This document shows, piece after piece, positions 21,446 to 58,347 of a stretch of DNA of 64,000 nt. The position numbers and the translations under genes are program-made. The notes under the pieces are model-generated. The model made no database searches. It was not told the DNA's origin and was given only the letters and a program-made list of their open reading frames with translations. The DNA is from an uncultured virus (IMG/VR IMGVR_UViG_3300034407_002805). Lineage: Duplodnaviria; Heunggongvirae; Uroviricota; Caudoviricetes. Location: IMG/VR virus record IMGVR_UViG_3300034407_002805; one strand, given 5' to 3'. Every line of letters begins with the position of its first letter. The first letter of the stretch is position 1.

Positions 21446-22324
21446 ATGGCTAAACAAGTAATTGGTGTCGGCAGTAGTGGTAATGACGGAACCGGTGATG
21501 ATCTGCGTACTGCTGGTGGCAAAATAAATGATAACTTTACTGAATTATACACTGATGTTGCAGCTTTACAAGTAGCGACAGGTGGTGCATCGTCAAATCT
21601 TGGTGTAGGTTTTGACAGCAATTCTATTGTATTTGAAGGTGCAACTGCCGATTCTTTTGAGACTACATTTACAATTACAGATCCTACTAAAGATAACACG
21701 ATAACACTACCTGATTCTACAGGCACCGTTCTGCTTGACACTACCATTGGTGGAAGCATTGCAAATTCAATCAACGGTATCGTAGACTCAAACTATATAG
21801 CATTAAGAAGTGGTATTGCACAAGATTCATCACAGACTCTTTTAATTGTACGGGCAAATTCGATTGACTCTGGTCTTGCAACTGCATTGATTGATTCGGC
21901 TTATGTAACAGCAAGAGTTAACACTTCTACTTTAGACTCGGCAGAAGTACAAAGGATGATCGATTCGAACGGTGGTTTAGATTCGTCTGAAGTACAGAAG
22001 ATGATCGATTCAAATCGTGGCTTAGACTCAGCCGAAGTAACTACGATAGTAGATTCAGATTATGTAAGACTGAAACAGTTAAGCAACTTTAATTACGTTG
22101 ACTCTGGAGCAGTTACAACGCTTGTAGATTCAGATTATATTTTAACAAGAGCTACACAGGTAAATTTGAATGCTTTTACTGTAGCTAATAAACCAAACAA
22201 CCCAGATCATGGTACACTGATATTTGTTAGAAATGGAGCATCAGGTAACCCGTGTTTAGCTGTGTTTGATAGTGCTTCAGGTAATTTCCTCAGGATCGCG
22301 CTTGGTGCAGCAGTAAGTACTTAA
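21446..22324 (+). CDS. gp9/gp10-like baseplate-fibre connector with DS repeats
   Basis: IGVG...NDGTGDDLRTAGGKINDNFTELY N-terminal signature; 16 DS. Confidence 0.8.
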   Translation: MAKQVIGVGSSGNDGTGDDLRTAGGKINDNFTELYTDVAALQVATGGASSNLGVGFDSNSIVFEGATADSFETTFTITDPTKDNTITLPDSTGTVLLDTTIGGSIANSINGIVDSNYIALRSGIAQDSSQTLLIVRANSIDSGLATALIDSAYVTARVNTSTLDSAEVQRMIDSNGGLDSSEVQKMIDSNRGLDSAEVTTIVDSDYVRLKQLSNFNYVDSGAVTTLVDSDYILTRATQVNLNAFTVANKPNNPDHGTLIFVRNGASGNPCLAVFDSASGNFLRIALGAAVST

Positions 22325-22336
22325 TAGGATAAGATA

Positions 22337-23689
22337 ATGCCAGCAATAGTAACAGACGCCTTACGAAGACAAATAGCACAGGACTTCTTTGATCAGTTTA
22401 CCGCTGATACGAGAAAGTACTATATTGGTATTGGTCGATCAGAGCAATGGGATTCATCCGAAACAGTACCAACACCTACTAACTCACCGCAGGGTATTCA
22501 AGCATTTCGAAATGCATTACAAGGTATCAAGAAAGTTGAAGCAACATCACTTGTTGTGCCAAGAAACAACTGGGCGTCAGGTGTTATTTACTCACAGTTT
22601 GATGACCAACAAGCAGGTTATCCTGCAAGTCCTTACTATGTTAAAAACGAAGCCAATCAAGTATATGTATGTTTAGAAGTTGGAAGAAACGCTGCTGGTA
22701 CAGCTGTTCCTTCTACAAGTGAACCAACTCATTCAAATAACGATGCAAGGCGATTAGCAGACGGTTATGTTTGGAAATTTTTATATACAATAAGTGCGGC
22801 TAGCGCTAACAGCTTTATGTCTTCGAATTTTATGCCAGTTCAGGTGCAAGGTGCAACAGATTCTAATTCAACTGGAATACAATTAAAACAAGAAGAAGTA
22901 CAGAACAACGCAAAACTTGGAGAAATTCTTAACTTAGTGATCACTGACGGAGGGGCTGGTTATACGTCACTTCCTACAGTTACCATCACTGGTACGGGAT
23001 CAAACGCTAGTTTTTTACCTACAATCGATTCAGCAACTGGAAGACTTGTTAGATTAAGAGCTGAGGATTCAAGTAATGGTGACGTAAAAGGGTTTGGAAC
23101 AGGATACACAAGGGCTGTTGTATCAATTACGGGTGGAGGTGCATCACAGAATGCTACTGCACGGCCAGTGCTTGGGCCAGACTCAGGCATCGGTAAAGAT
23201 CCAAGAGAAGACTTGCGGTCTACGTCAGTAATGTTCCATGCAGATTTACTTGGCACTGATTCAGACTTGATTGTAAACCAAGACTTTAGACAAGTAGGAC
23301 TAGTAAGGGATCCTCGCACTTCTACAGGCGCAGCTTTCTTAGCGACTACTGGTAATTCACTAAAGAGCATGACGTTATCAAGTATTGTAACGGGATTCAC
23401 AGCCGATAAAACTATTCAAGGTTCAACCACAGCGGCGAAAGCAATTGTAGATGAAATTGATTCGAATCAAATATTCTATCATCAAAACGATGATACTGGA
23501 TTCTTATCTTTCCAAGACGGTGAGCTTGTAACTGAAACAAATGGTTCAGGTGATGGTGTGATCGATTCTGCCCTTAGGTCGCCTGAAGTTGATCCTGAAA
23601 CTGGTGCGATACTCTATATAGATAACAGAAAACCTGTAAGTCGAGCGCTGGCACAAAATGAAGACATTAAAGTTGTCGTACAATTCTAA
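22337..23689 (+). CDS. g8: baseplate wedge gp8
   Basis: YIGIGR...W, VYVCL, DGYVWKFLY, DFRQVGL and YIDNRKPVSR...Q.EDIKVVVQF. Confidence 0.9.
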   Translation: MPAIVTDALRRQIAQDFFDQFTADTRKYYIGIGRSEQWDSSETVPTPTNSPQGIQAFRNALQGIKKVEATSLVVPRNNWASGVIYSQFDDQQAGYPASPYYVKNEANQVYVCLEVGRNAAGTAVPSTSEPTHSNNDARRLADGYVWKFLYTISAASANSFMSSNFMPVQVQGATDSNSTGIQLKQEEVQNNAKLGEILNLVITDGGAGYTSLPTVTITGTGSNASFLPTIDSATGRLVRLRAEDSSNGDVKGFGTGYTRAVVSITGGGASQNATARPVLGPDSGIGKDPREDLRSTSVMFHADLLGTDSDLIVNQDFRQVGLVRDPRTSTGAAFLATTGNSLKSMTLSSIVTGFTADKTIQGSTTAAKAIVDEIDSNQIFYHQNDDTGFLSFQDGELVTETNGSGDGVIDSALRSPEVDPETGAILYIDNRKPVSRALAQNEDIKVVVQF

Positions 23690-28951: not shown

Positions 28952-29169
28952 TGAAACATATTAAAGTTGATGGTGAGTCTCACTTAGTTAGAAATGAAAA
29001 CGGTGTTATATTAAGTAATGATATCAGTGCTGTCGAGCAAGCTAGGTTAAGAAAAAAATTAAGAAAAGAAAAAGACGCAGAACTTGAAACACTTAAGCAG
29101 GATGTCAATGATATAAAGTTACTGCTAAATCAAATTGTAGGTAAACTCGATGGCACGAATAGCAGATAG
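28951..29169 (+). CDS. small coiled-coil hypothetical protein
   Basis: 72 aa; C-terminal heptads LKQDVNDIKLLL. Confidence 0.75.
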   Translation: MKHIKVDGESHLVRNENGVILSNDISAVEQARLRKKLRKEKDAELETLKQDVNDIKLLLNQIVGKLDGTNSR

Positions 29170-30193
29170 TAGTTTTATTGATGACTCCATCGGCGTCTTT
29201 ATCGATAATATTAATCAGATTAGTGTTTATCTAGGTAACCTAGATAGCGTTAATCGCGCACCTTTACGTGGTTCTATTAACTTCAATAATAGAGTCAATG
29301 ATCCTGCAAACACTTATTACGATCCTAGAGACGTGCCACCTGAAACGCATGATACTGTGCGAGAAGTTAACTTCTTACACAACAAGGTGCAGTACTTTTC
29401 ATACCTATTATTTTCATCTCTGCCACCTAACTTACCTTCACCTAAACTCGTTACTGACAGTGCTTATTTTGAAACCTTTTCAGCTGATCATTTAAGAATT
29501 CCTATTGAGAGAAATGCGGGTAGAGAAATTCCGGGGTTTGTTCTCGAAGGGCGTGATTCATCTCCTGGCGATTCTGATTATCCGCATACAGGTCTGTTAG
29601 CAATTGACAGTGCTAATATATCTTATCTTAGTGGCCAGTATTTTAAAGTTGGCGCTAATTATTTTGATAGCCCACACGCTGGTTTTTATTCGTTATTAAA
29701 TAACCCATCGCATGGAGGAACAGATTCACGAGCTGGTGGCTACGCTTTCTTTGATAGCAATGAAGTAGTAGACTTTGGTTTAGTAGTTAACGTTGGTAGA
29801 ATACAACGTTTAACTGGCCCGCCTGCAGATAGCGATACATCTACATTTCCTTTCCCTATGCCTCGAAGATCTGATGGAGATTCAGGCTTTGAGCAGGACT
29901 CTGGTTTTCTAAGCTATGATAGTGGAAGATTTAATAAGTTAATGGTTGGCAATTTCTTTATTGCTGATTCAACACCTACTGAAGACTCTTCTGACTGGCA
30001 ACAGTTTAGGTTCCCTCACGACTCTGCAAACTTTGATAAATTCGAGTTTAACACTATGCATTTTGATAGTAATGACACTTTTAATCAACCAATGAGATAT
30101 GTGCAGAGGTTAACTATTGAAACTGATTCGGCCGTGTTTAACGGAGGCGGATTTTTATTATCACCTTTTGATAGTGCAGGTAGAATAACATAG
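29150..30193 (+). CDS. DS-rich virion/fibre protein
   Basis: 347 aa, 20 DS; N-terminus paralogous to the next ORF. Confidence 0.7.
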   Translation: MARIADSSFIDDSIGVFIDNINQISVYLGNLDSVNRAPLRGSINFNNRVNDPANTYYDPRDVPPETHDTVREVNFLHNKVQYFSYLLFSSLPPNLPSPKLVTDSAYFETFSADHLRIPIERNAGREIPGFVLEGRDSSPGDSDYPHTGLLAIDSANISYLSGQYFKVGANYFDSPHAGFYSLLNNPSHGGTDSRAGGYAFFDSNEVVDFGLVVNVGRIQRLTGPPADSDTSTFPFPMPRRSDGDSGFEQDSGFLSYDSGRFNKLMVGNFFIADSTPTEDSSDWQQFRFPHDSANFDKFEFNTMHFDSNDTFNQPMRYVQRLTIETDSAVFNGGGFLLSPFDSAGRIT

Positions 30194-30212: not shown

Positions 30213-30836
30213 ATGACACGTAGAATATACATAAATGCATCTGATGCTATCGGTACTTGGATTGGTAAGAATAACCAGTTAGCCCAGGCTATTGGTGACT
30301 TGGATAGCTTAGACTCGGGTTTTTCTGGAATACACACTGGCTATCTAAGGTCTGACTCCGATATTGTATCAGCGTTGAATATGCTACACCTACAGATGGA
30401 CAGTATAAATGATTACATTTTTGATTCACTTGGAGTATTAAGACTTCAAGCTGTATATGCTGATTCAGCTGATATAGGTATACTACACGCTGAGCATGCT
30501 GCAATTGACAGTGCTCAAATAGATAGCGCGCACATCAATAAGCTCACTGGATCTTATATGAGATTTGATAGTGCTGACATTGACAGCGCAATGATAAGAC
30601 ACTTATCCGGCGAATCACTTTTCTATGACAGCGGTAGGTTTAAAAATCTTTCTGTTATTGACAGCGCGTTTATCGATAACGTTGCCATCAATGAAGCTAA
30701 TGTAGAAAGAATTACAGTACGTGCTGATGCAGTAACACTATCACACGCACAGTTATTTACTGTTCAAGATTCAGTTGGCAGTACACTATTGGCAGGTTAT
30801 CTCTTATCTACGGATAGCGCGGCAAATACAGCATAG
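30213..30836 (+). CDS. DS-rich fibre-like virion protein
   Basis: 207 aa, 14 DS; DSAxI short-period repeats. Confidence 0.7.
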   Translation: MTRRIYINASDAIGTWIGKNNQLAQAIGDLDSLDSGFSGIHTGYLRSDSDIVSALNMLHLQMDSINDYIFDSLGVLRLQAVYADSADIGILHAEHAAIDSAQIDSAHINKLTGSYMRFDSADIDSAMIRHLSGESLFYDSGRFKNLSVIDSAFIDNVAINEANVERITVRADAVTLSHAQLFTVQDSVGSTLLAGYLLSTDSAANTA

Positions 30837-30843: not shown

Positions 30844-32013
30844 ATGGCTTTCCGTAGACCACTAAAGTATAGTCAAAATAAAAATTCTATTACAGTTGGC
30901 GGTGACGCAAAATTTCAATTAATGTCTAATGAAGACATTGATCGCATAAGACAGCAAGCAATTTTTGAGCTATCAAAGAATCCAGTGTATGACCTAAGAG
31001 TTACAACTGCGCTGGATAGTGATGGTAATCCCATTGGCAACCTAGATACAATTTCTGATACAAGAATCACATCGGCAGCTGCGGTTTTAGGAACTGCCAG
31101 TTCTTTTCCGTCTGACCCAGGCACTGCGTTATTTGGTACTGTAAACACCAACTACAAAAGGCTTAGAGATTCAACTGATTCATGCGGATTTGATTCGAAT
31201 GCATACTTATATTTAGCTGACACCGCACCAAGACCTCTATGTTTAGATTCAGACAGAGGCCAAATACTTATGGAGATGCCTTTACAAGATGTCTTTGATA
31301 CGTTTATCAGGCCAGCACTCGATTCTTTCTATGCTGATGTTACTAACATTGGTGATTCTAATAATTATATGAGACCCGGCCTGTACTTAATTGGAGGTGG
31401 AGCTAACGCAATACATACCGATGCAAGTGTAGCTTCACGCAATCCTGCTTTTGGAGTTGACAGCGTAGTCTTTCAAGAATTAGATTCTGCTGATGTAGTT
31501 TTTGCCGATACAGTCGCTAATCCGGGTGCATTTGCTGCAGGTGCAATTGGTACAGTTGGAACTTTCCAAGATGCTGCAACGACGAGTACTAGTTATTTTC
31601 TACAGAGAACGATCAATCCAGATTCAGGAACTGAATATTTTACTCAAGATTCAATAAGTGGAAATGTAGTTTTACCTTTAAAGTATGAAGAAAATGCACA
31701 AAAGGGCTACGGGCATCCTGGTTTAAAACAATTCAGTAGAAATGAATTCAAAGATTATTTGCAAAGAGCAATGAGATTTGTATCAGGCGGAGAAACTAAC
31801 TATCGCCATTACTATATAATTGATAGTGGCGCTACCGGCTCAATCATGGGTTCAGCTATAGTTAATACTGAGATTGTAAGTCCTGGTTCTAATTTCCAAA
31901 CACGGTTGGCAGATCCAGGTGCATCAGATCCTAATGATTATCGAGGACAAGAATTTCCTACCGGTACACCTTCTGCTGTTAACACTCAATATCTTAAATT
32001 TGTGAGGCACTAA
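30844..32013 (+). CDS. DS-rich virion protein
   Basis: 389 aa, 12 DS; DYRGQEFPTG C-terminus. Confidence 0.7.
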   Translation: MAFRRPLKYSQNKNSITVGGDAKFQLMSNEDIDRIRQQAIFELSKNPVYDLRVTTALDSDGNPIGNLDTISDTRITSAAAVLGTASSFPSDPGTALFGTVNTNYKRLRDSTDSCGFDSNAYLYLADTAPRPLCLDSDRGQILMEMPLQDVFDTFIRPALDSFYADVTNIGDSNNYMRPGLYLIGGGANAIHTDASVASRNPAFGVDSVVFQELDSADVVFADTVANPGAFAAGAIGTVGTFQDAATTSTSYFLQRTINPDSGTEYFTQDSISGNVVLPLKYEENAQKGYGHPGLKQFSRNEFKDYLQRAMRFVSGGETNYRHYYIIDSGATGSIMGSAIVNTEIVSPGSNFQTRLADPGASDPNDYRGQEFPTGTPSAVNTQYLKFVRH

Positions 32014-32522
32014 TGAAACTACATGACGCATATTTTTTTGATAACGATAGAACTGTTATTAAAGCGATTTATCGTGATAAAGATAATAATGAAATAGTAA
32101 GACACATACCAGCTCAAGAAAGCAATAAAAAGTATCAAGCTTTTATGAATGATATGGAAACTATAAGTGGAGATACAAGCGCTATTGATAAATTACATGA
32201 ACGAACTATGAATTACTTAAGAGAAAGTCAAAGTGATTTTGAAGAGAAAGTAATAACTATTGCAAAAGAAAGAGGTCTTGTTCATGATATTGATAACGTT
32301 AGTACTGATGTTTACAAAATAGTAGCGGCGTCACTTTTTAAAGATTTTGATGAAGAGAAAGAAAAGCAATCGTTGTTTCTATATAAGCTCACATTGTTTG
32401 AAATGGATTTTGTAAAAGATTGTGATGATAGAGACTTAAAAAAAGAACTACGGAAATCGAAAACTTTGATAGATGCTACAAAGATTGCATGTGAAATATA
32501 TCAAAAATCACAAATCTTGTAA
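32013..32522 (+). CDS. hypothetical protein
   Basis: 169-aa ORF, TAATG coupled. Confidence 0.75.
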   Translation: MKLHDAYFFDNDRTVIKAIYRDKDNNEIVRHIPAQESNKKYQAFMNDMETISGDTSAIDKLHERTMNYLRESQSDFEEKVITIAKERGLVHDIDNVSTDVYKIVAASLFKDFDEEKEKQSLFLYKLTLFEMDFVKDCDDRDLKKELRKSKTLIDATKIACEIYQKSQIL

Positions 32523-33686
32523 CAAGTTTTTTAGTTCAGGTGTATAATCTAAAACATTAAACCCTCTAATTTTATTCATTTTGTCTGTATATAACCAGAG
32601 ATTATGAAGCCAATCTTTATACTCATTAGCTTTATAATGGCTCATTGGGTCAAAAAAATCTCTGAATGTAGTTCTTCTACCATATTCAGATCCTAGTCGT
32701 AAATATTTTTCTAGCTGTTTTTCTACTATATCATCGGGTAGATATTGTATAGAACACCACCATGGAAAAGTTACAAGGTTGTGACATTGTATCCAGTTTA
32801 TATATTCTTTGTGGTAGAAATATTCGAATATACTCTCTAATGAAAAATAATTATAAACAGTTATTGTAATTGTAATTCCTATTTTTAATCCAGTTGCATC
32901 ATAAAACATTTGCATATTCTTAGTTACTCTATCAAAATCTCCTCCTCTAATCCAATTATAAAGTTCATGTGTTCCGTCTACTGATACCATAACATCTAAA
33001 TGTTTCAGTTTAGACAACATATTAAGATGACTTTTCCTTAAGCCCTGAAGATTAGTCGTTATCCTAATATTACAATCTGGATTTAGTTCTGAACACTTTT
33101 CCATAAGATCAATATGTTTTTGATCTGCAAAGCAGTCACCTCCTTTTACAACCATTACATCTAAGTCTGGTATAAGCTTTACGATTTTATTATAATCATC
33201 ATCTGTAAATCTGAAAAGTGTACTTTTATCATGCATAAAATCGGCATCATATTTAAACCATTGATTTGAGTGTCTACCACTGCACATTACACACATTTGA
33301 TTACATATGTTTGAAGCTGCTAATTCTATAAAACGTACTTTGTTTTCTGCACCTTTTTTATATCTCCATTTGTTCTTACCTGATTTTAAATTATATTCGT
33401 AAGATTGAAATACATTATTTTTTTTCATCCTATTTTTGCCAAAACACTTATAACAAGGATAAAATTCGGTTTGCCTTTGTTCTTCGTATGCTTTCCAAAC
33501 TTGTTGGTAGTGCTGAGACCACCACTCTTGTAAATCATCAACTTCCCGTAGATTAAATTGTTCTAAGCGTGGTTTGCTGTTAAAAGATGTAGTTGTGTTA
33601 TCCATACAGCAAAAAGAAAGATTACCAGTGTCTGGTTCTACTGTAAAACCATGGTGTGGTATGTAACAATTTTTAGACCAGTCCAA
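32508..33686 (-). CDS. radical SAM protein with N-terminal Cys-rich (twitch/SPASM-like) segment
   Basis: CNQMCVMC (CxxxCxxC), GGD, ITTN and SVDG...YNWIRGG; N-terminal C..FCC..CYKC. Confidence 0.88.
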   Translation of the reverse strand: MDWSKNCYIPHHGFTVEPDTGNLSFCCMDNTTTSFNSKPRLEQFNLREVDDLQEWWSQHYQQVWKAYEEQRQTEFYPCYKCFGKNRMKKNNVFQSYEYNLKSGKNKWRYKKGAENKVRFIELAASNICNQMCVMCSGRHSNQWFKYDADFMHDKSTLFRFTDDDYNKIVKLIPDLDVMVVKGGDCFADQKHIDLMEKCSELNPDCNIRITTNLQGLRKSHLNMLSKLKHLDVMVSVDGTHELYNWIRGGDFDRVTKNMQMFYDATGLKIGITITITVYNYFSLESIFEYFYHKEYINWIQCHNLVTFPWWCSIQYLPDDIVEKQLEKYLRLGSEYGRRTTFRDFFDPMSHYKANEYKDWLHNLWLYTDKMNKIRGFNVLDYTPELKNLLQDL

Positions 33687-34443
33687 CTTTAAAATCCTTA
33701 TTTACTTGATGAATAAAATGTACAGCGTCAGTGTACGTAGTAATGTCTTGATTGAGAATATAATTCCATGATATACCTATATTTATCATAGGTATATTAT
33801 ATCGCTCTATTAAGTATGAAAAGAATGCTTCATTGTTTGGTTTCCATACTCGTGATACTTCATCTGGATATACGTTATCTTCGCAAGCTTCTTTATATAC
33901 TTCTAAACACTCATCTAATCTACCAACCCAATCAAGTCTTTTTATAGACTCTTTAGATCCCAAAACCACACCTGTGTTTATTAAAGCATCTGTGCCTGTT
34001 ATGTCATCTAGTAAAAGCATAGCTTTTTTAATAGTGCACTTTACCCAAACGTTCAATGGGTGAAAGTTATCATCATCAAGTTCCCACTTGAATTTTTTAG
34101 CGTCTAGTTCTCTTGGAATATTGTAAACACATATTTTGCTAGTATCAAAGTTTTCGAAAATATTAGTAGTAGTTTTAGGGATTACATCGAAATCTAAATA
34201 TAAAACCTCATCATAATCATATGAAAGTTCTTGTAATTTTATGAGCTTATCAAATTGTATTTTGTCATAATTTGTTTCAGATGTTTCAATTAAAGAATAG
34301 TCAGCCTTACAAAAAGAAGCATAATCTTTTTGTGCTTGTTCTAACTTTGTTTTATATTTCTCGAACTGCGATTTTTTGTAATCTGTAGAAGAGTCATGCT
34401 TATCCACAGTCGGTGTATAAATGCTATAAATGATTCTTTTCAT
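33673..34443 (-). CDS. GT-A glycosyltransferase-like protein
   Basis: YDEVLYLDFDV (DxD), INTGVV, NNE and FIHQVNK. Confidence 0.75.
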   Translation of the reverse strand: MKRIIYSIYTPTVDKHDSSTDYKKSQFEKYKTKLEQAQKDYASFCKADYSLIETSETNYDKIQFDKLIKLQELSYDYDEVLYLDFDVIPKTTTNIFENFDTSKICVYNIPRELDAKKFKWELDDDNFHPLNVWVKCTIKKAMLLLDDITGTDALINTGVVLGSKESIKRLDWVGRLDECLEVYKEACEDNVYPDEVSRVWKPNNEAFFSYLIERYNIPMINIGISWNYILNQDITTYTDAVHFIHQVNKDFKVGLV

Positions 34444-35326
34444 ACCACTCTTTCACGTATTTGAAATCTTTGTTAATAACATGAATTATATTTGTTTTAT
34501 CTGGTACGTAACTCCACTTATCCATGAAGTGATGCCACTTTTCATCTAGCCATTGTACACTAACGTCGTTGTAGTTCATTCTAAAACTCCAGATAGTTTC
34601 ATTATCCCAACCAAACATGTCTCTTAAATATACTGGCCACATGCCATCAGCATCGTTTTTTAGTTCAGTCATCAAATCAATTATTGATGAGAAATTATCG
34701 AAATAGTTTAGTTTATATAAATCAGTTGCAGATATACCAACAATACCAGTATTATAAACATCGTTAGAACCACTCATATTGTGGTCTACTAGTAGAGCTC
34801 TAGCATTCCAGTATTTAGCTGCAGGAGATCTGATTGAGAATGCTTTACCTTTTCTTTCATATCTCTCTTCGCTTAGTGATAGTTGATTGCATATCTTATC
34901 TACATGTCTCGCATTGCGAAAAACAGCTACGCCATTTTTAGATACATTCCAATAATCAAAAAAATTTTTATTACTTACCGGTACTGCATCGAAATCTAAA
35001 TACAGAATCTCGTCATAATCCTTGGCCATTTCATACATTAAATGTATTTTATAAAAGTTAACTATATTATATGAAGTTATTACTGGATATTTCTCGTTGA
35101 ACATATTTTTATATTCAATGTAATTTTTATCATACTCGAATAACTTGTAGTCAATTCCTAACGATTCTGCGTACCGCAAGTGCATAGACTTTAGCCATGA
35201 ATAGTACTCCTTCAACTTCTCTTTGGTGCGTATTGTTTTAGGAAGAGTATCGTTGTGATAAGGCGGCTGATAATCTAATTCATCCTCAGGTATATCGATA
35301 TATAAACTGAATATTACTCTTTTCAC
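34424..35326 (-). CDS. GT-A glycosyltransferase-like protein (paralogue of neighbour)
   Basis: YDEILYLDFDA, YNTGIV, DNETI and IIHVINK. Confidence 0.75.
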   Translation of the reverse strand: MKRVIFSLYIDIPEDELDYQPPYHNDTLPKTIRTKEKLKEYYSWLKSMHLRYAESLGIDYKLFEYDKNYIEYKNMFNEKYPVITSYNIVNFYKIHLMYEMAKDYDEILYLDFDAVPVSNKNFFDYWNVSKNGVAVFRNARHVDKICNQLSLSEERYERKGKAFSIRSPAAKYWNARALLVDHNMSGSNDVYNTGIVGISATDLYKLNYFDNFSSIIDLMTELKNDADGMWPVYLRDMFGWDNETIWSFRMNYNDVSVQWLDEKWHHFMDKWSYVPDKTNIIHVINKDFKYVKEWYEKNHL

Positions 35327-35904
35327 TGTACTTCTTCTCTTTCACTTATTGTAATTACAGGTTTATTATATAACATAGATATATCACTCCAGGAACAATG
35401 TGATCCTACATAACACATGGAATCTTCAATTAATTTTATCTTTTCTATAATCTCTTGCGCATTTTGAAAGTTACGACTATCCCCTAAGTCTATAAGATTA
35501 GTGTTTTTTATTTCTGCCTCTAAAGCTCGGTGCTTAGCAAAGTGTTTTAACTTATTTTTTTTAGAAAATGGTATGAAGGAAGATACTACATGTAGATTTT
35601 TAAGGTTCTTTTTTCTCATGGACTTTTGAAGTAGACCCGTAATATTATCTTGTAATAAGGAATGACCTACATGTTCACCATGCTTAGATCTGTAATCAGA
35701 TAAAATCATTTTAGAATCTGAATCTAATTTAGATATTATAATATCATTTTTGCGTTTAAAAATGTAGTCATAAACGGGCAAATATTTTAATGTATTATTA
35801 GCATGGTAATTACCTAAAAAAGAAATGTCTCCTTTGAAAAAACTATCACCTAGATATATCCATCTCAAGGAATCAAACAAACCAACTTTTTTTACGAATG
35901 TCAT
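35323..35904 (-). CDS. hypothetical protein, possibly a GT-B-like fragment
   Basis: C-terminal YVGSHCSWSDISMLYNKPVITI resembles GT9/GT11-type C-termini (weak). Confidence 0.45.
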   Translation of the reverse strand: MTFVKKVGLFDSLRWIYLGDSFFKGDISFLGNYHANNTLKYLPVYDYIFKRKNDIIISKLDSDSKMILSDYRSKHGEHVGHSLLQDNITGLLQKSMRKKNLKNLHVVSSFIPFSKKNKLKHFAKHRALEAEIKNTNLIDLGDSRNFQNAQEIIEKIKLIEDSMCYVGSHCSWSDISMLYNKPVITISEREEVQ

Positions 35905-36548
35905 TTTCCTATTACCATATATCTTTCATACTCATCATTTATATTTCTTTTGCCTGCATATAATATTTTATTTAAAGGTAAAGAATCTACAAAATCTTCT
36001 AGCGATTTTTTACAGTTAATATGACTGTCAACATCAAAATAATTATTTGATTGTAAGCACATTAACATGTTTGGATTTTTTAATTTAAATGAGAAATCGA
36101 TTTCACTTTGATCTATATGTTCACAAGCAGTACATATAACTATTTTTACATTGCTATTCGTTTTTATGTCATGGAATATTTCTAATCCATCTTCGTCCAT
36201 AAACTGTACGTTATCATGAATACGTAATCGGCTGGCCATCTTATTACAAAATTTATCTAGTTCATAATTTATAATTTGCTTTTTAAATCCTGACTCACTG
36301 AGAAGATGTGACATCAAACCATACCATCCACCTATGATAAGACAAGCGTTATACTCGTCAGTAATGAAAGGTTTAAGCTTTTCTACAGCCCATGTCTTAC
36401 ATTCTATTTGTCCATCACTTATAGAATCTAAGAGATCTTTAATGCGAAATAGATCTATGTTTTCATTGTACATAGATTCTCTATAAATTTTATCAATAAT
36501 TTTTAAAGCTTTTTTATACAATAACGGATTCATGTATTCCACTGTCAA
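35901..36548 (-). CDS. class I SAM-dependent methyltransferase-like protein
   Basis: LIIGGWYG motif I, NYELD motif II, CTACEHI and LQSNNY. Confidence 0.7.
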   Translation of the reverse strand: MTVEYMNPLLYKKALKIIDKIYRESMYNENIDLFRIKDLLDSISDGQIECKTWAVEKLKPFITDEYNACLIIGGWYGLMSHLLSESGFKKQIINYELDKFCNKMASRLRIHDNVQFMDEDGLEIFHDIKTNSNVKIVICTACEHIDQSEIDFSFKLKNPNMLMCLQSNNYFDVDSHINCKKSLEDFVDSLPLNKILYAGKRNINDEYERYMVIGK

Positions 36549-37062
36549 ACGTATTCCAATCTTTTATTTCATTCCAGAAAAACCTGTCTATACCTTTATA
36601 TTTTCTAGTATTATAGTCAATGTTCTTCGAAAACAAATCCCATATGTAAGTATTTTTATGTGCTGTCCATGCTAATACTGAACTATTTAATTCAGTTTCA
36701 TATGAATGCTTTTTGTAATGTAAATCTTTTTTCCAATCATCTCTCATAAATGTAGGTGTAGAAAAATCTATATCTTTAATATATTCGAATGGATCGTTTT
36801 TTATCTCTACATCTAAATCGAACAATACACATTTGCCTGTCAAAGGAAAATTATCTCTAAACAAATGCATTTTGTTCCACCAACGCCGTAGCTTTGGTTT
36901 TTCAGGTATCTCTATACATTCTATGTTAACGCCTGTTCGATCCTCTGTGAAGCAGTATATCTGTCCTATTACACCCTTAGAAACTTTAGTTATGCATTGA
37001 GCTTGTTTATTTACATCATCTGAGGTATATTTATCGCCGTGTTTTAATAATACTACGTTCAT
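36514..37062 (-). CDS. short GT-A glycosyltransferase-like protein
   Basis: LKHGDKY, WWNKMHLF, LFDLDV (DxD), NSSVLAW and GID. Confidence 0.7.
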   Translation of the reverse strand: MNVVLLKHGDKYTSDDVNKQAQCITKVSKGVIGQIYCFTEDRTGVNIECIEIPEKPKLRRWWNKMHLFRDNFPLTGKCVLFDLDVEIKNDPFEYIKDIDFSTPTFMRDDWKKDLHYKKHSYETELNSSVLAWTAHKNTYIWDLFSKNIDYNTRKYKGIDRFFWNEIKDWNTFDSGIHESVIV

Positions 37063-37129: not shown

Positions 37130-37483
37130 ATGGCACAGTACGAATTATTCAAGATCGACAAAGGATCTGACGTAGCGATACAGCTACATTTAGAAGATGC
37201 AGACGGCAATCAGAAAAACCTTGACGGTTATTCGATTGCTGCCAAAATGAAAAAGAACTTCAACAGCGATTCCTCAGATACACACTCCTTTACAGCAGCC
37301 ATCAATGCACCTGTCAGTGATGGTATCGTAACTCTTTCACTCACTAACACTCAAACAGATGCACTCAAAGTCGGTAACTACGTTTATGATGTAGAAATTT
37401 CTTACATTGATGACAGTGGCGGGGACACTATTATTGAAAGAATACTTGAAGGTAAGATACGAGTCAGCCCATCGGTGACGTAA
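37130..37483 (+). CDS. virion structural protein (BppU N-terminal-like)
   Basis: IDKGSD, LSLTNTQT..L..G.YVYDVEI and RILEG.I.VSP.VT. Confidence 0.7.
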   Translation: MAQYELFKIDKGSDVAIQLHLEDADGNQKNLDGYSIAAKMKKNFNSDSSDTHSFTAAINAPVSDGIVTLSLTNTQTDALKVGNYVYDVEISYIDDSGGDTIIERILEGKIRVSPSVT

Positions 37484-45337: not shown

Positions 45338-45934
45338 ATGGCTAGAAACTTTTACTTCTCGGAAAAAGTCAGGTCGGAGATGGACCTGTATGAAGATATT
45401 ATTATCGAGTCCATGAAAATATATGGGCAAGATGTATATTACTTACCGAGAACAATCGTAAATGAAGATAAGATACTAGGTGATGACGTTGCTTCATCAT
45501 TCGATGACGCATATAAAATTGAAATGTACATTGAAAATGCTGAGGGTTTTGACGGTGAGGGTGATCTCTTTACTAAGTTTGGTGTTGAAATTAGAGATGA
45601 AGCAACTTTTATCGTTGCTAGACGTAGGTGGAAGAACACTGTTCGTCGTGCTGCTAACGCCATACAAGGTGATAGACCTAGCGAAGGTGATTTAATTTAC
45701 TTGCCTCTTTCTAAATCATTGTTTCAAATAAATCACGTAGAGCACGAACAACCTTTCTATGCTATCGAGAATCTACCTACATTCAAGTTAAGATGTCAGC
45801 TGTTCGAATATGTCGGTGAAGATCTCGATACTGGAATTGATACAATAGACGATATAGAAAAAGAATATGCTTACAGATATAACTTAAGACTAAAGTTGCC
45901 TAAGAATGCAACAGGAACTGCGAGTATTTTATAA
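45338..45934 (+). CDS. g14: neck protein gp14 (conserved N-terminal domain)
   Basis: IYGQDVYYLPR, KFGVEIRD, RPSEGDLIY and VEHEQPFY. Confidence 0.9.
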   Translation: MARNFYFSEKVRSEMDLYEDIIIESMKIYGQDVYYLPRTIVNEDKILGDDVASSFDDAYKIEMYIENAEGFDGEGDLFTKFGVEIRDEATFIVARRRWKNTVRRAANAIQGDRPSEGDLIYLPLSKSLFQINHVEHEQPFYAIENLPTFKLRCQLFEYVGEDLDTGIDTIDDIEKEYAYRYNLRLKLPKNATGTASIL

Positions 45935-46752
45935 TGGCGGCTAAGGGTGTTAATACTTTAACTATCACTGATAGTGGCGAAAGATTTAGTTTTTCGCCGT
46001 ATGTAAAGTTTACTTTACCTGATGAAGATTCGAGAAATGCTGGTGGTTTAATAACACTCGATGATTCTGGTAAAATAGCTTCAATTACAATTACAGATAG
46101 TGGCAACTATTACACATCAGCTCCAACTGTGACTGTTGCAACAGACAGCGCTAATGATAGTGCAGCTGTAACTGCATTGATTACGCGAGGACAGGTTTCT
46201 GGTTTTACCATTACCGATTCAGGTTTTGGCATGGATTCGTGTAGATTAATAATCACCGCACCTACCGGTACACCAGGTGATTTTGTTGCACAAGCTAGGA
46301 CACTCATAGATTCAAGTGCAGAAAAAGTATCACAACTTATTTTAGTTGATAGTGGAAACTTCTATCTAAATGCACCTACTATGACAATCCATGGTGGTAG
46401 CAATATAGAAAGTAGTTATGAAAGAGGTGATGCAATTGAACAAACTCTTTCAACTGGTGTTAAGATTAGAGGTGAAGTTCTAGGTTACTTGCTCGATTCA
46501 GACGGCGATTCTGCAAGAGTACTGAGTGTTGGCCATGTTGGTGCAGACGACGGAAAGTTTAGAGAATTTGTAGTAAATAGAGACATCATAAATACTAGTC
46601 AGGCATTCACTACTGGGCTCGAGGTAGTAGGAGTTGATGAGGAAAATAACATGTCAGAGAATGAACAAAACGAGTTCTTTACAACATCTGATATTGATGA
46701 CTTCTTAAACTTCAGTGAAGATAACCCATTTGGTGATCCGGAGAATCAATAA
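45934..46752 (+). CDS. DS-rich protein resembling a detached gp14 C-terminal extension
   Basis: ITDSGxxYTSAPTV repeats; ends FSEDNPFGDP; 12 DS. Confidence 0.7.
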   Translation: MAAKGVNTLTITDSGERFSFSPYVKFTLPDEDSRNAGGLITLDDSGKIASITITDSGNYYTSAPTVTVATDSANDSAAVTALITRGQVSGFTITDSGFGMDSCRLIITAPTGTPGDFVAQARTLIDSSAEKVSQLILVDSGNFYLNAPTMTIHGGSNIESSYERGDAIEQTLSTGVKIRGEVLGYLLDSDGDSARVLSVGHVGADDGKFREFVVNRDIINTSQAFTTGLEVVGVDEENNMSENEQNEFFTTSDIDDFLNFSEDNPFGDPENQ

Positions 46753-56956: not shown

Positions 56957-56970
56957 TTGGGAGTCCAATA

Positions 56971-58347
56971 ATGCAAGACGTAATTTCTTACGACAAGTTG
57001 ATGGAAAAATGGGCACCGGTACTGAACGAAGAGTCAGCGGGAGCCATTACCGACAACCACAGGAAAGCAGTTACAGCTGCTATTCTTGAAAACCAAGAGC
57101 GTGCATTACGTGAAGAGCAAGGAATGCTCAACGAAATGCCTGCAAATAACACATCGAGCGTAGCAAACTGGAACCCAGTTCTGATTGCTCTCGTTCGTCG
57201 CGCTATGCCTAACCTTATGGCATACGACATCTGCGGTGTTCAGCCAATGTCAGGTCCAACAGGCCTCATCTTTGCGATGAAGTCTAACTATAAGACAACA
57301 CGGGCTGGTGCAACTTCAGGCGATGAAGCACTGTTCAACGAAGCCGTACCAGGATTCTCTGGTGACTCAGGTTCAGGACCTGTGCCAGGCACAACTCAGC
57401 AACGTTTAGACGGTGTTGATGCTGGACCTTCTGGTTTGTCAGGAATTGTTGACTCAGACGCTGACTCAACTATCGACGATACTCGTATCGATCCGGCAAA
57501 CGGAACAACAGGTTTCGCAATGCCATTGTCCGACGGTGAAAACCTCGGTACAACAGGTGATTCAGCCTTTGCAGAAATGGGCTTCACCATCGAGAAAGCA
57601 ACTGTTAGTGCACGGACACGCGCACTGAAGGCAGAATACAGCCTCGAACTTGCTCAGGATCTGAAAGCCATTCATGGCCTGGATGCTGAGACTGAGTTGG
57701 CAAACATCTTGTCAACTGAGATCATGGCTGAAATCAACCGTGAAGTTGTTCGTACAATTAACTCACAAGCTAAGACTGGTGCACTTCAAACAAACACTGC
57801 TCTTAACGGTGTCTTCAACGTCCAAACAGACGCAGACGGCCGTTGGTCAGTTGAGAAGTTTAAAGGTCTGATCGTACAGATCGAGCGTGAGTGTAACGTA
57901 ATCGCAAAAGAAACACGTCGGGGTAAAGGTAACTTCATCATCTGTTCATCAGATGTTGCATCATCCTTGTCAGCCTCTGGCATGCTCGATTACTCACCTG
58001 CAATGTCAACAAACTTGAACGTTGACGATACAGGAAACACCTTTGCTGGTGTCCTTAACGGACGCACACGGGTCTACATCGATCCGTATGCAGTAGCTGA
58101 CTACATCACAGTCGGTTATAAGGGTACTAACCCATATGACGCAGGTCTCTTCTATTGCCCATACGTACCACTAACAATGGTTCGTGCAGTGGGTGAGGAT
58201 ACATTCCAGCCGAAGATTGGATTTAAGACTCGCTACGGCTTGGCTTCAAACCCATTCGTTGGATCATCTCCAGCAGACGGCTTGGCAGCGATCAAGACCA
58301 ACCAATACTATCGTATCTTCCGCGTAGACGATATTCTTGGATCATAA
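56971..58347 (+). CDS. g23: major capsid protein gp23
   Basis: GVQPMSGPTGLIFAM, RALKAEYSLELAQDLKAIHGLDAE and FQPKIGFKTRYG. Confidence 0.98.
   Translation: MQDVISYDKLMEKWAPVLNEESAGAITDNHRKAVTAAILENQERALREEQGMLNEMPANNTSSVANWNPVLIALVRRAMPNLMAYDICGVQPMSGPTGLIFAMKSNYKTTRAGATSGDEALFNEAVPGFSGDSGSGPVPGTTQQRLDGVDAGPSGLSGIVDSDADSTIDDTRIDPANGTTGFAMPLSDGENLGTTGDSAFAEMGFTIEKATVSARTRALKAEYSLELAQDLKAIHGLDAETELANILSTEIMAEINREVVRTINSQAKTGALQTNTALNGVFNVQTDADGRWSVEKFKGLIVQIERECNVIAKETRRGKGNFIICSSDVASSLSASGMLDYSPAMSTNLNVDDTGNTFAGVLNGRTRVYIDPYAVADYITVGYKGTNPYDAGLFYCPYVPLTMVRAVGEDTFQPKIGFKTRYGLASNPFVGSSPADGLAAIKTNQYYRIFRVDDILGS

What the first reader, a model, noticed from the sequence alone, without database searches (positions are those of the whole stretch)
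21446..57570. Virion-wide Asp-Ser motif enrichment: candidate sequon for a phage virion-decoration system
Seen, by hand count: DS occurs about 77 times in the 1714-aa fibre, 16/292 in the gp9-like protein, 20/347, 14/207 and 12/389 in the three ORFs at 29150-32013, 12/272 at 45934, 8/450 in gp8 and 11 in the DUF4815-like protein. I found 0-2 in gp32, gp17, gp19, gp20, gp21, gp48 and UvsW. The motif sits in unrelated folds and uses mixed codons (GAT/GAC with TCN or AGY), so it is selected at protein level and is not a DNA repeat. Known: D-(S/T) is the core of the Bacteroidetes O-glycosylation sequon, and GxDS is the phosphopantetheinylation site of carrier proteins. Inference: outer virion proteins have acquired many acceptor serines for a modification, most simply O-glycosylation by the embedded cassette at 32508-37062. 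This could coat the particle for shielding, adhesion or host recognition.
Basis: partly seen in the sequence, partly recalled or inferred. Interest (0 to 1): 0.92.

Follow-up and report, generated by a model that had tools for sequence, protein, structure and literature searches.

The report
Asp-Ser-rich phage fibres beside sugar island
The fibres and other outer appendages of this uncultured marine T4-like phage carry four to five times more Asp-Ser pairs than chance predicts, most likely as a structural cap or turn of repeated fibre modules, though sugar attachment by the neighbouring enzyme genes is not excluded.

Summary
Every hand count was reproduced. DS is 4.6-fold enriched in six proteins (151 observed, 32.9 expected), and 0 of 5000 shuffles reach the observed count in any of them. 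SD, DT, ES and NS are not enriched.

It is not virion-wide. Twenty-three core head, tail and baseplate proteins pool to O/E 0.71, the same as non-structural proteins. Only appendages are enriched: the gp9-like connector, three ORFs at 29150-32013, the 1714-aa fibre, a neck appendage and, mildly, gp8.

The motif is phi-D-S-(A/N/G/D)-x-phi. In the fibre, 53 of 77 DS lie in about 25 copies of one short module. DS columns are nearly invariant in relatives, and Ser is almost never replaced by Thr.

The cassette does encode two GT8-like enzymes, a GT-A-like enzyme, a methyltransferase-like enzyme and a radical SAM enzyme. It is syntenic across the clade. However, close relatives swap its content without changing DS, and Pelagibacter phage Mosig has cassette homologues but no DS enrichment.

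Best reading: a structural cap/turn motif of amplified fibre modules (0.5). An O-glycosylation acceptor remains open (0.25). No tool here can detect a modification.

The parts
21446..22324 (+). gp9-like baseplate/tail-fibre connector, 292 aa, 16 DS (O/E 5.4). Residues 110-235 are a run of short DS-bounded modules.
   Evidence: Pfam T4_gp9_10_N and PDB gp9/gp10 N-terminal hits. Counts and contexts. The AF2 secondary structure is low confidence. Family members in relatives are DS-rich in 21 of 26 ORFs.
22337..23689 (+). gp8-like baseplate wedge protein, 450 aa, 8 DS (O/E 2.6, mild).
   Evidence: Pfam Phage-Gp8. Shuffle z = 3.1. 11 of 25 family ORFs in relatives pass O/E>=3 with DS>=5.
29150..30193 (+). 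347-aa DS-rich protein (20 DS), a paralogue of the 30213 family, with degenerate phi-phi-DS-(A/N)-x-phi units.
   Evidence: ORFs at this position in other loci match the 30213 protein by BLAST. 7 of 7 family ORFs are DS-rich.
30213..30836 (+). 207-aa DS-rich protein (14 DS): N-terminal helices, then a beta-rich repeat region with units I-DS-A-x-I.
   Evidence: In alignment A1, 10 DS pairs are invariant across 19 sequences down to 39% identity. AF2 gave pLDDT 58. Only weak, non-significant Foldseek matches, most of them to beta-solenoids. 34 of 38 family ORFs are DS-rich.
30844..32013 (+). 389-aa non-repetitive protein with 12 DS. The enrichment is specific to this sub-lineage.
   Evidence: In alignment A7, DS is kept in 7 of 120 cells at the window's DS positions. 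Homologous ORFs in the loci printed have 0-2 DS. 1 of 21 family ORFs is DS-rich.
32013..32522 (+). Conserved 169-aa protein that always borders the cassette; 0 DS.
   Evidence: Present in 23 loci and in Mosig.
32508..33686 (-). Twitch-domain radical SAM protein.
   Evidence: NCBIfam NF033640 at 172.6 bits against a cut-off of 170; Pfam Radical_SAM. Present in only some relatives.
33673..34443 (-). GT8-like glycosyltransferase with a DxD motif.
   Evidence: Consensus YLDxDVIP in alignment A3. Pfam GT8 hits 7 of 10 family members, best 2e-06, but not the window's own copy. LgtC matches only at E = 0.55.
34424..35326 (-). Second GT8-like glycosyltransferase, a paralogue of 33673-34443.
   Evidence: Consensus YLDFDVIP in alignment A2. 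Pfam GT8 hits 5 of 11 members, best 1.4e-06, but not the window's own copy. 43% identical to Mosig_00091.
35323..35904 (-). Orphan 193-aa ORF inserted in the cassette, itself DS-rich (6 against 1.3 expected).
   Evidence: 2 of 5000 shuffles reach the count. No homologue in any locus. Absent from the 86%-identical relative L033.
35901..36548 (-). Class-I methyltransferase / aminopropyltransferase-like protein, one of the two near-universal cassette genes.
   Evidence: The A4 profile hits spermidine synthases in the PDB at 1.3e-03. Pfam Spermine_synth hits 3 of 16 members, best 1e-05. 19 loci and Mosig carry it.
36514..37062 (-). GT-A-like nucleotide-sugar transferase with a DxD motif, the other near-universal cassette gene.
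   Evidence: PHROG 1962 glycosyltransferase at 1.2e-05. FDLDV consensus. Nearest named Atlas clusters are Nucleotid_trans and GT8, a lead only. 504 metagenomic relatives, one of them named 'Nucleotide-diphospho-suga...' by UniRef.
37130..37483 (+). Tail-fibre-assembly-like 117-aa protein preceded by a TATAAATA late-promoter motif at 37078.
   Evidence: PHROG 3304 and 1084. 95% identical in relatives whose cassette differs. Promoter motif.
37681..42825 (+). 1714-aa fibre with 77 DS. 53 of them lie in 28 pairs spaced 9 residues apart, about 25 copies of the module phi-DS-x-x-(V/I)-DQM-phi-DS.
   Evidence: PHROG tail-fibre hits. The exact module occurs in only 3 IMG/VR contigs, all close kin.
45338..45934 (+). 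gp14-type neck protein N-terminal part (0 DS). It is fused to the next ORF in some relatives.
   Evidence: Pfam T4_neck-protein. Fused forms occur in L050 and L051.
45934..46752 (+). 272-aa neck appendage with 12 DS and Ig-like repeats reading I-T-DSG-x-x-Y.
   Evidence: PHROG 460/708/701 repeats. The cyanophage equivalents read [ND][SGAT]GxGY. The family stays DS-rich (12-18 DS) in 10 of the 12 ORFs examined, including a non-repeat inserted domain.

Best explanation
The window comes from an uncultured marine T4-like myophage related to the pelagiphages. In it, phi-Asp-Ser-(small)-x-phi is a structural element, a helix N-cap or tight turn, that bounds the short units of several families of fibrous or appendage modules.

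These modules were multiplied by tandem duplication and shared among the appendage genes. Purifying selection on fold or trimer assembly keeps D and S fixed. That would produce the 4-5-fold DS excess in the gp9-like connector, the 29150/30213 paralogues, the fibre and the neck appendage, while the core virion proteins stay at background.

On this reading, the adjacent minus-strand cassette of GT8-like, GT-A-like, methyltransferase-like and radical SAM genes is a separate, hypervariable sugar island with a different target.

- **Shown:** the enrichment, its confinement to appendages, its repeat origin in the fibre, its positional conservation and the makeup of the cassette.
- **Inferred:** the cap/turn role and the independence of DS from the cassette.
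For: 1. Context. A hydrophobic residue sits at -1 in 118 of 159 DS sites and at +4 in 84 of 159, against a background of 0.38. This is the N'/Ncap/N4 pattern of Asx-motif helix caps with a hydrophobic patch (passages of PMC11101637).
2. Predicted secondary structure. In the AF2 model of the gp9-like protein, 6 of the 7 helices between residues 100 and 240 start exactly at the Ser of a DS, and 3 further DS lie inside or at the end of helices. The model has pLDDT 46, so only the secondary structure is usable.
3. Repeat origin. 53 of 77 fibre DS lie in about 25 copies of one 11-residue module.
4. Conservation. 10 DS pairs supply 20 of the 40 invariant columns of the 30213 family. DS is kept in 199 of 252 aligned cells, and DT does not appear among the 14 commonest dipeptides listed.
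5. Ser only. DT is 16 against 27.2 expected, and D-T-[AILVMT] is 10 against 10.9.
6. The beta-rich part of the 30213 protein gives only weak Foldseek matches, most of them beta-solenoids, where each rung has a fixed turn. All have E>0.1, so this is a hint only.
7. DS is decoupled from cassette content. L038 has a 70%-identical fibre with 85 DS and flanking genes at 95% identity, yet a different cassette without GT8 or radical SAM.
8. Mosig has homologues of the GT8-like (43%), GT-A-like and methyltransferase-like genes in a syntenic sugar island of about 17 kb, yet its appendage proteins have DS O/E of 0.0-1.8. Its 1245-aa fibre has 4 against 7.8 expected.
9. No TATAAATA late-promoter motif lies on the cassette's strand within or upstream of the cassette, whereas such motifs precede the plus-strand structural genes.
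Against: - A generic cap or turn does not explain why this clade uses D-S so uniformly while T4 fibres do not. T4 gp9, gp10, gp12, wac, gp34 and gp37 have DS O/E of 0.5-1.4.
- N1 of a helix cap is normally variable, yet here Ser is as fixed as Asp.
- DS is also enriched in contexts that are not tandem repeats:
  - the inserted domain of the neck-appendage family, with 14-18 DS at roughly 3-4 times expectation;
  - the protein at 30844, which gained 12 DS in one sub-lineage whereas homologous ORFs in the loci printed have 0-2;
  - an Ig-like repeat whose cyanophage equivalents read [ND][SGAT]G but which reads DSG here.
- Enrichment is confined to exposed appendages.
- A sugar cassette lies in all 11 relatives that span the region.
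- Both AF2 models are low confidence (pLDDT 58 and 46), and no solved structure matches the DS regions.
Confidence: 0.5

Rival explanations
1. The DS serines are acceptor sites for cytoplasmic, stepwise O-glycosylation of the appendage proteins. The near-universal GT-A-like enzyme (36514-37062) would start the glycan. The methyltransferase-like enzyme (35901-36548) and the variable GT8-like and radical SAM genes would extend or tailor it, giving strain-specific coats on a conserved acceptor motif.
For: - Enrichment is confined to exposed appendages and absent from 23 core virion proteins.
- DS occurs in several sequence contexts, including non-repeat domains, and shows a lineage-specific gain in the protein at 30844.
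- D-S-[AILVMT] is 65 against 13.0 expected.
- The cassette lies inside the appendage gene block in all 11 loci that span it. It always contains the methyltransferase-like gene, and in 10 of 11 the GT-A-like gene.
- The cassette proteins have no membrane segment (maximum 19-residue hydropathy 1.18), as expected for soluble cytoplasmic transferases.
- The only hits of the GT8-like family in 'genomes' were 6 phage contigs binned into MAGs. This suggests a long-standing phage function.
- Content swapping resembles glycan-diversity loci.
- There is precedent for phage virion glycosylation in mycobacteriophages (Freeman et al. 2023). Only the title was seen, in a reference list; the content is recalled.
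Against: - Ser is almost never exchanged for Thr, and DT is depleted.
- Sites are positionally invariant rather than turning over.
- The hydrophobic flanks and helix-start position fit a structural cap.
- 86 of 151 sites do not have a hydrophobic or Thr residue at +1; among them G accounts for 21, N for 25 and D for 17.
- Mosig has the enzyme homologues without DS enrichment.
- The cassette can be swapped with no change in DS.
- No late promoter lies on the cassette strand.
- The window's own GT8-like proteins do not reach Pfam significance themselves.
- No modification can be observed with these tools.
Confidence: 0.25
2. Asp and Ser side chains line the trimer axis or the rung turns and bind Ca2+ or Mg2+, which are abundant in seawater. 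This would stiffen the fibres, much as metal sites do in other phage fibres.
For: - D and S are both strictly fixed, and Thr is not tolerated.
- The units recur at regular 5-, 9-, 15- and 20-residue spacings.
- The fibre module is often followed by His-containing stretches such as DSHLSNVLHG and by Gly runs.
- The clade is marine: the related isolates were obtained on marine hosts, and many family members come from marine metagenome sources such as Tara.
Against: - No known metal-binding signature, such as DxDxDG or GGxGxD, is present in the contexts listed.
- Ser is a poor Ca2+ ligand (general knowledge).
- There is no structural model good enough to place the side chains.
- Marine relatives such as Mosig lack the motif.
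Confidence: 0.08
3. DS marks a recognition element for a fibre-assembly chaperone, either the conserved 117-aa protein at 37130 or the 169-aa protein at 32013, which would thread or trimerise DS-bounded modules.
For: - Both small proteins are syntenic with the DS-rich genes throughout the clade.
- The protein at 37130 matches a tail-fibre-assembly PHROG and stays 95% identical in close relatives.
Against: - Mosig has homologues of both proteins (43% and 32% identity) without DS enrichment.
- No known fibre chaperone reads a dipeptide (recalled).
- No test was run.
Confidence: 0.05

Closest known systems
Asx-motif helix N-cap with N'/N4 hydrophobic patch (capping box / hydrophobic staple)
   Same: Asp comes immediately before the first helical residue, with hydrophobic residues at -1 and +4. 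Short helices are bounded this way (PMC11101637 passages).
   Different: The residue after Asp is fixed as Ser. The motif also occurs in beta-rich and Ig-like contexts. It is amplified to 12-77 copies per protein.
Bacteroidota general O-glycosylation sequon D-(S/T)-(A/I/L/V/M/T)
   Same: Asp precedes the hydroxyl residue, and Ala is the commonest next residue. Both are recognised through motif frequency above chance in a protein class (PMC12871550 passages; PMC8550257 abstract).
   Different: Thr is not used. 86 of 151 sites fall outside the +1 rule. That system transfers the glycan in the periplasm to non-cytoplasmic proteins, whereas phage particles assemble in the cytoplasm and the cassette has no membrane proteins. 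The nearest cultured relatives infect SAR11 and OM43, not Bacteroidota.
Sugar ('LPS') gene clusters of T4-like cyanophage P-SSM2
   Same: [quoted passage not shown]
   Different: Those clusters were proposed to alter the host cell surface. Here the island sits at a fixed place between the baseplate-appendage genes and the fibre genes, and its core genes look phage-specific.
Mycobacteriophage virion O-glycosylation (Freeman et al. 2023, Cell Host Microbe)
   Same: Phage-encoded glycosyltransferases lie next to structural genes and modify virion proteins. This is recalled; only the title was seen, in the reference list of PMC12801897, and the paper is not held.
   Different: As recalled, the targets there are capsid and tail-tube subunits. 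Here the major capsid protein (4 DS against 2.2 expected), the sheath and the tube are not enriched.
Cytoplasmic hyper-glycosylation of repeat adhesins (AIDA-I/TibA heptosylation) and virus-encoded glycosylation of the chlorovirus capsid and mimivirus fibrils
   Same: This is how the rival reading would work: soluble transferases decorate many Ser residues in repeat or fibre proteins, with a glycosyltransferase plus methyltransferase combination (recalled, not from any call).
   Different: No homology to those enzymes was found. An Atlas neighbour cluster of GT8 proteins from giant viruses is only a lead.

Membership tests
Bacteroidota O-glycosylation sequon D-(S/T)-(A/I/L/V/M/T) | Ser and Thr both serve as acceptor after Asp | tested here: not met
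   DS is 151 against 32.9 expected, but DT is 16 against 27.2 and D-T-[AILVMT] is 10 against 10.9. DT is not among the 14 commonest dipeptides at DS columns of A1 (252 cells), and occurs in 2 of 208 cells in A6.
Bacteroidota O-glycosylation sequon D-(S/T)-(A/I/L/V/M/T) | Residue after Ser/Thr is A, I, L, V, M or T; Gly is not accepted | tested here: inconclusive
   65 of 151 sites fit (A 47, T 7, V 5, I 3, L 3). 86 do not, among them N 25, G 21 and D 17. The rule comes from PMC12871550.
Bacteroidota O-glycosylation sequon D-(S/T)-(A/I/L/V/M/T) | Targets are non-cytoplasmic proteins; the glycan is built on a lipid carrier, flipped and transferred in the periplasm | tested here: not met
   None of the eight proteins in and beside the cassette has a membrane-like segment (maximum 19-residue hydropathy 1.18). 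That phage particles assemble in the cytoplasm is general knowledge. Signal peptides on the DS-rich proteins were not tested.
Carrier-protein phosphopantetheine site GxDS(L/I) | Ser within G-x-D-S-(L/I) at the start of helix 2 of a small four-helix carrier domain | tested here: not met
   1 site (GGDSI, in the DUF4815 protein) in the eight DS-bearing proteins scanned. No carrier-protein or transferase family hit in Pfam.
Asx-motif helix N-cap with hydrophobic patch | Asp is the last non-helical residue, and hydrophobic residues sit at N' and N4 | tested here: inconclusive
   Hydrophobic at -1 in 118 of 159 sites and at +4 in 84 of 159, background 0.38. 6 of 7 predicted helices in residues 100-240 of the gp9-like protein start at the Ser of a DS, but the model has pLDDT 46. 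It does not fit the beta-rich 30213 region.
Glycosyltransferase family 8 (for 33673-34443 and 34424-35326) | GT-A fold with a DxD motif and a match to the Pfam GT8 profile | tested here: inconclusive
   The DxD consensus is present. Pfam GT8 matches 7 of 10 and 5 of 11 family members (best 2e-06 and 1.4e-06) but not the window's own two proteins. The PDB profile search gave LgtC at E = 0.55 only, or nothing. No fold was predicted.
Twitch-domain radical SAM (NF033640) | Score above NCBIfam's curated cut-off | tested here: met
   172.6 bits against a cut-off of 170, residues 6-388 of 392.
Phage virion O-glycosylation of the mycobacteriophage type | Glycans detected on virion proteins; phage glycosyltransferases required | not testable with these tools
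   No proteomic data can be reached here, and no isolate of this clade carries the DS-rich proteins (tblastn of the 30213 protein against 50,697 phage records gave no match).

The most novel reading that the evidence does not exclude
A clade of abundant, uncultured marine T4-like phages coats its fibres, baseplate appendages and neck appendage with O-linked, methylated glycans attached to the Ser of a phi-D-S motif. Soluble phage enzymes would do this: a phage-specific GT-A-like transferase paired with a methyltransferase-like enzyme. A swappable set of GT8-like and radical SAM genes would diversify the glycan between strains. This would be a defined Ser-specific sequon for virion glycosylation in phages of Gram-negative marine bacteria.
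Probability: 0.25. Interest if true: 0.85.

Novelty: new variant of a known kind. Interest (0 to 1): 0.55.

Why it matters
If DS is structural, it defines undescribed fibre-module families with a simple sequence signature. That signature could help annotate and model the many 'hypothetical' appendage proteins of marine T4-like phages.

If DS is an acceptor site, it would be the first sequence-defined glycosylation motif on phage appendages that I know of. None of the paper searches run here turned up such a motif or this cassette. It would also explain why a hypervariable sugar island sits at a fixed place inside the appendage gene block. Fibre glycans would bear on host recognition, on particle stickiness and decay in seawater, and on how host range is read from fibre sequences.

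Either way, the fixed island between the baseplate-appendage and fibre genes is a clear target for experiment. It is conserved from this clade to Pelagibacter phage Mosig.

Tried and rejected
- **Whole genome.** None is held for this window.
- **Isolates.** tblastn of the 30213 protein and of the fibre repeat region (aa 650-960) against 50,697 phage records gave no match. The low-complexity filter may hide the repeats. No cultured phage carries these modules.
- **Solved structures.** PDB sequence searches for the DS regions found only gp9/gp10 N-terminal matches for the gp9-like protein, and chance-level hits for the 30213 family.
- **AF2 models.** The model of the 30213 protein (19 sequences) has pLDDT 58. 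The model of the gp9-like protein (14 sequences) has pLDDT 46. Both are too poor for surface mapping, so only secondary structure was used.
- **Fold search.** Foldseek of the 30213 model gave nothing at E<=0.001.
- **ESM Atlas.** It has no structure and no named neighbour above 0.9 for the 30213 protein.
- **PDB profile searches for the cassette.** There was nothing for the A2 and A5 families, and LgtC at E = 0.55 for A3.
- **Host and bacterial context of the GT8-like family.** All 6 genome-contig hits were phage contigs binned into MAGs, so there is no host clue. No tRNA genes are present.
- **Promoters.** No sigma-70-like excess (24 found against 30.7 expected) and no late-promoter motif on the cassette strand. 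The timing of cassette expression stays unknown.
- **Carrier-protein GxDS reading.** Rejected: 1 site only.
- **DNA-repeat origin.** Rejected: 12 codon pairs.
- **'Generic property of T4-type fibres'.** Rejected: T4 fibre and appendage proteins have O/E of 0.5-1.4.
- **Literature.** The Melnitz/Mosig paper (PMC9004378, term search only) does not discuss the island. Freeman et al. 2023 is not held.
- **Not run.** Complex prediction, the search of protein representatives, the look-up of sequencing runs and read laying were not used, because none could show a modification.

Full report
**What the window is.** The window is a structural-gene block of a T4-like myophage. It holds gp32, baseplate hub and wedge genes, gp8, gp9-like, neck proteins gp13/14/15, terminase, sheath, tube, portal, prohead protease, scaffold, major head protein, UvsY and UvsW. 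The sheath protein is at most 46% identical to any record among 50,697 phage genomes. The best matches are Phage C48C1 (host not given), Pelagibacter phages Mosig and HTVC008M, and the OM43 phage Melnitz. No whole genome is held. No tRNA gene is present.

**The observation.** I translated 59 ORFs and counted dipeptides.

| Protein | DS observed | Expected or O/E |
|---|---|---|
| 1714-aa fibre | 77 | 18.0 expected |
| gp9-like | 16 | 2.9 expected |
| 29150 | 20 | O/E 5.4 |
| 30213 | 14 | O/E 5.3 |
| 30844 | 12 | O/E 4.2 |
| 45934 | 12 | O/E 4.5 |
| gp8 | 8 | O/E 2.6 |
| DUF4815 protein | 11 | O/E 1.55 |

gp32, gp17, gp19, gp20, gp21, gp48 and UvsW have 0-2 DS each.

- In 5000 shuffles per protein, none reached the observed count for the six rich proteins (z = 5.8 to 15.4). 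gp8 is mildly enriched (38 of 5000). The DUF4815 protein is not (480 of 5000).
- Among all dipeptides DS ranks first in the rich set, at 151 against 32.9 expected. In the other 52 proteins it is 75 against 80.4.
- DT (16 against 27.2), ES (3 against 8.4) and NS (18 against 24.4) are at or below expectation. SD is not enriched in any protein.
- Twelve codon pairs encode DS.

The excess is therefore real and acts at the protein level.

**Where it is not.** Pooled, 23 core virion proteins (hub, wedge, tube, sheath, portal, protease, scaffold, head, gp13, gp14 N-part, gp15, gp2, gp4) have 26 DS against 36.6 expected, or 0.71. Seventeen non-structural proteins give the same 0.71. 'Virion-wide' is therefore wrong. 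The excess belongs to appendages:
- the gp9-like connector;
- three ORFs between the VrlC/DUF4815-type giant protein and the cassette;
- the long fibre;
- the ORF at 45934. This is the detached C-terminal appendage of neck protein gp14; the two are one protein in L050 and L051.

**Anatomy of the motif.** The 173 sites in nine proteins read phi-D-S-(A/N/D/G)-x-phi. A hydrophobic residue stands at -1 in 118 of 159 sites and at +4 in 84 of 159, against a background of 0.38.
- In the fibre, 53 of 77 DS lie in 28 pairs nine residues apart. These are about 25 copies of phi-DS-x-x-(V/I)-D-Q-M-phi-DS, often followed by Gly runs or His-containing stretches.
- The same module fills residues 160-235 of the gp9-like protein.
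- The 30213 family uses a different unit, I-DS-A-x-I, at 5-, 15- and 20-residue spacing. The ORF at 29150 is its paralogue.
- The neck appendage uses an Ig-like repeat, I-T-DSG-x-x-Y.

There are thus several contexts, but far fewer independent events than sites.

**Relatives.** The 30213 family has 29 members in the large protein collection and 29 loci in IMG/VR.
- In a 19-sequence alignment down to 39% identity, ten DS pairs are invariant. They supply 20 of the 40 invariant columns.
- DS is kept in 199 of 252 aligned cells, and DT is not among the 14 commonest replacements listed.
- Across loci L003-L029, ORFs with O/E of at least 3 and at least 5 DS number as follows:

| Family | DS-rich ORFs |
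|---|---|
| gp9-like | 21 of 26 |
| 30213-like | 34 of 38 |
| 29150-like | 7 of 7 |
| gp8 | 11 of 25 |
| fibre fragments | 4 of 11 |
| DUF4815 | 0 of 26 |
| 27377 | 0 of 22 |
| 30844 | 1 of 21 |
| cassette proteins | 1 of 75 |

- The neck-appendage family stays DS-rich (12-18 DS) in 10 of the 12 ORFs examined, including a non-repetitive inserted domain. The two exceptions, L050 and L051 (34% identical), have 5 DS against about 3 expected.
- The cyanophage equivalents of its Ig-like repeat read [ND][SGAT]GxGY rather than DSG.
- The protein at 30844 has 12 DS only in the window's sub-lineage. Homologous ORFs in the loci printed have 0-2 DS, and the window's DS positions fall largely in lineage-specific insertions.
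- T4's own gp9, gp10, gp12, wac, gp34 and gp37 have O/E of 0.5-1.4. The excess is therefore a clade trait, not a general fibre trait.

**Structure.** Two AF2 runs were possible, and both were poor.
- For the 30213 protein (pLDDT 58) the model gives N-terminal helices, then continuous strand from residue 76 to 159. Foldseek found nothing at E<=0.001. Most of the weak rows are beta-solenoids, such as bactofilin, ice-binding proteins, left-handed beta-helix acetyltransferases and curli.
- For the gp9-like protein (pLDDT 46), 6 of the 7 helices between residues 100 and 240 begin exactly at the Ser of a DS: 115, 128, 142, 165, 180 and 229. Three more DS lie within or at the end of helices, and three lie in unstructured, very low-confidence stretches.
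- Asp as the last non-helical residue, with hydrophobic residues at N' and N4, is the Asx-motif cap with a hydrophobic patch (PMC11101637, passages read).
- No solved structure matches the DS regions by sequence.

**The cassette.** Six minus-strand ORFs at 32508-37062 have about 30% G+C, against 37-41% around them. They are:
- a twitch radical SAM (NF033640, 172.6 bits against a cut-off of 170);
- two paralogous proteins with a YLDxDVIP motif, whose family members hit Pfam GT8 in 7 of 10 and 5 of 11 cases, although the window's own copies do not;
- an orphan 193-aa ORF that is itself DS-rich (6 against 1.3 expected) and is absent from the near relative L033;
- a class-I methyltransferase or aminopropyltransferase-like protein;
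- a GT-A-like protein with FDLDV (PHROG glycosyltransferase 1.2e-05; Atlas neighbours Nucleotid_trans and GT8 as leads; 504 metagenomic relatives without Pfam domains).

None has a membrane segment. A genome-contig scan with the GT8-like profile returned six contigs. All six are phage contigs binned into MAGs.

**Link between cassette and DS.**
- A cassette lies between the 32013-like and 37130-like genes in all 11 loci that span the gap. It always has the methyltransferase-like gene, and in 10 of 11 the GT-A-like gene. GT8-like and radical SAM genes are optional.
- L038 is a close relative: its fibre is 70% identical with 85 DS, and its flanking genes are 95% identical. It carries a different, plus-strand cassette whose two shared genes are only 26-29% identical, and it has no GT8 or radical SAM gene.
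- Pelagibacter phage Mosig has a sugar island of about 17 kb at the same place. It carries homologues of the GT8-like (43%), methyltransferase-like and GT-A-like genes, plus aminotransferase, carbamoyltransferase, epimerase and Asp/Arg-hydroxylase genes.
- Mosig's appendage proteins have DS O/E of 0.0-1.8, and its 1245-aa fibre has 4 DS against 7.8 expected.

I found no DS-rich phage without a cassette. I did find a cassette without DS enrichment, and cassette replacement without any change in DS. The TATAAATA late-promoter motif precedes plus-strand structural genes, including one at 37078 for the ORF at 37130. None lies on the cassette strand within or upstream of the cassette.

**Weighing.** The structural reading explains:
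- the hydrophobic flanks;
- the helix starts;
- the regular spacing;
- the near-invariance of both residues;
- the exclusion of Thr;
- the repeat origin;
- the independence from cassette content.

It does not easily explain:
- why Ser after the capping Asp is fixed;
- why non-repeat domains and one recently changed protein are also enriched;
- why only this clade does it.

The acceptor-site reading explains the confinement to exposed appendages, the multiple contexts and the fixed neighbourhood of a transferase island. It is weakened by Ser-only usage, by positional invariance, by Mosig and by the cassette swap. I put the structural reading at 0.5, glycosylation at 0.25, ion binding at 0.08 and chaperone recognition at 0.05. 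The remainder is unassigned.

**Comparison with known systems.**
- The Bacteroidota sequon D-(S/T)-(A/I/L/V/M/T) (PMC8550257 abstract; PMC12871550 passages) shares the Asp and the frequent Ala. It fails on Thr usage, on 86 of 151 +1 residues and on compartment.
- The carrier-protein site GxDS(L/I) fits one site.
- Sugar clusters are known in the T4-like cyanophage P-SSM2 and were proposed to change the host surface (PMC1079782 and PMC2984593, passages). That remains a plausible role for this cassette too.
- Phage virion glycosylation is known from mycobacteriophages. Only the title was seen, in a reference list; the paper is not held, so its content is recalled.
- Six paper searches found nothing on a DS motif or on this island in pelagiphage-like phages. 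The Melnitz/Mosig paper, searched by terms only, does not discuss the island. Supplements were not examined.

Noticed in passing
window 47546-48628 (+): A Rieske-type oxygenase gene sits between gp15 and the small terminase subunit, inside the structural block. Pfam Ring_hydroxyl_A scores 1.2e-06. The N-terminal Rieske domain matches anthranilate and glycine-betaine oxygenase models far below their cut-offs. A 360-aa ORF occupies the same place in the relative L038.
   Followed up: partly
window 35323-35904 (-): An orphan 193-aa ORF is inserted between the GT8-like and methyltransferase-like genes. It has no homologue in any fetched locus and is absent from L033. It is itself DS-rich (6 against 1.3 expected; 2 of 5000 shuffles reach that).
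   Followed up: partly
window 32300-37100: The cassette has about 30% G+C against 37-41% in the flanking structural genes. Its content differs between phages whose flanking genes are 95% identical (L038). It behaves as a swappable island at a fixed site.
   Followed up: yes
L030 (Mosig, record 54.7-72.5 kb): Pelagibacter phage Mosig carries an island of about 17 kb at the syntenic site. It is annotated with two Asp/Arg hydroxylase-domain proteins, a DegT-type aminotransferase, a carbamoyltransferase, three MoaA-like radical SAM proteins, an epimerase, an N-acetyltransferase and nitroreductase-like proteins. Four 2OG-Fe(II) oxygenases sit next to its neck genes (L077).
   Followed up: partly
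L071-L076: Six contigs filed under MAGs are pieces of phages of this clade. The MAGs are labelled Flavobacteriaceae, Woesearchaeota, Rhodobiaceae, Rhodobacteraceae (two contigs) and Lewinella. Several carry homologues of the phage's appendage genes in synteny, and all carry cassette genes, so the labels are binning artefacts and give no host.
   Followed up: yes
window 45338-46752; L050, L051: The gp14-type neck protein is split here into a 198-aa N-part and a 272-aa appendage, with the ATG overlapping the stop. In L050 and L051 it is one 374-aa protein. In other relatives the appendage carries a large inserted domain (412-522 aa forms).
   Followed up: partly
window 21600-21740 (gp9-like residues 53-99): The widespread motif IVFEG..ADSFET....PT.DNT..LPDS.GT matches 11 places in Pelagibacter phage HTVC008M. 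It also matches proteins of T4-like cyanophages and of the cyanophage SS120-1 (47 kb genome). It is a shared fibre-attachment element.
   Followed up: no
window 40100-41600 (fibre residues 800-1290): Runs of 5-7 Gly, and His pairs such as DSHLSNVLHG and DSHEANTTHG, alternate with the DS modules. They may be hinges or metal sites.
   Followed up: no
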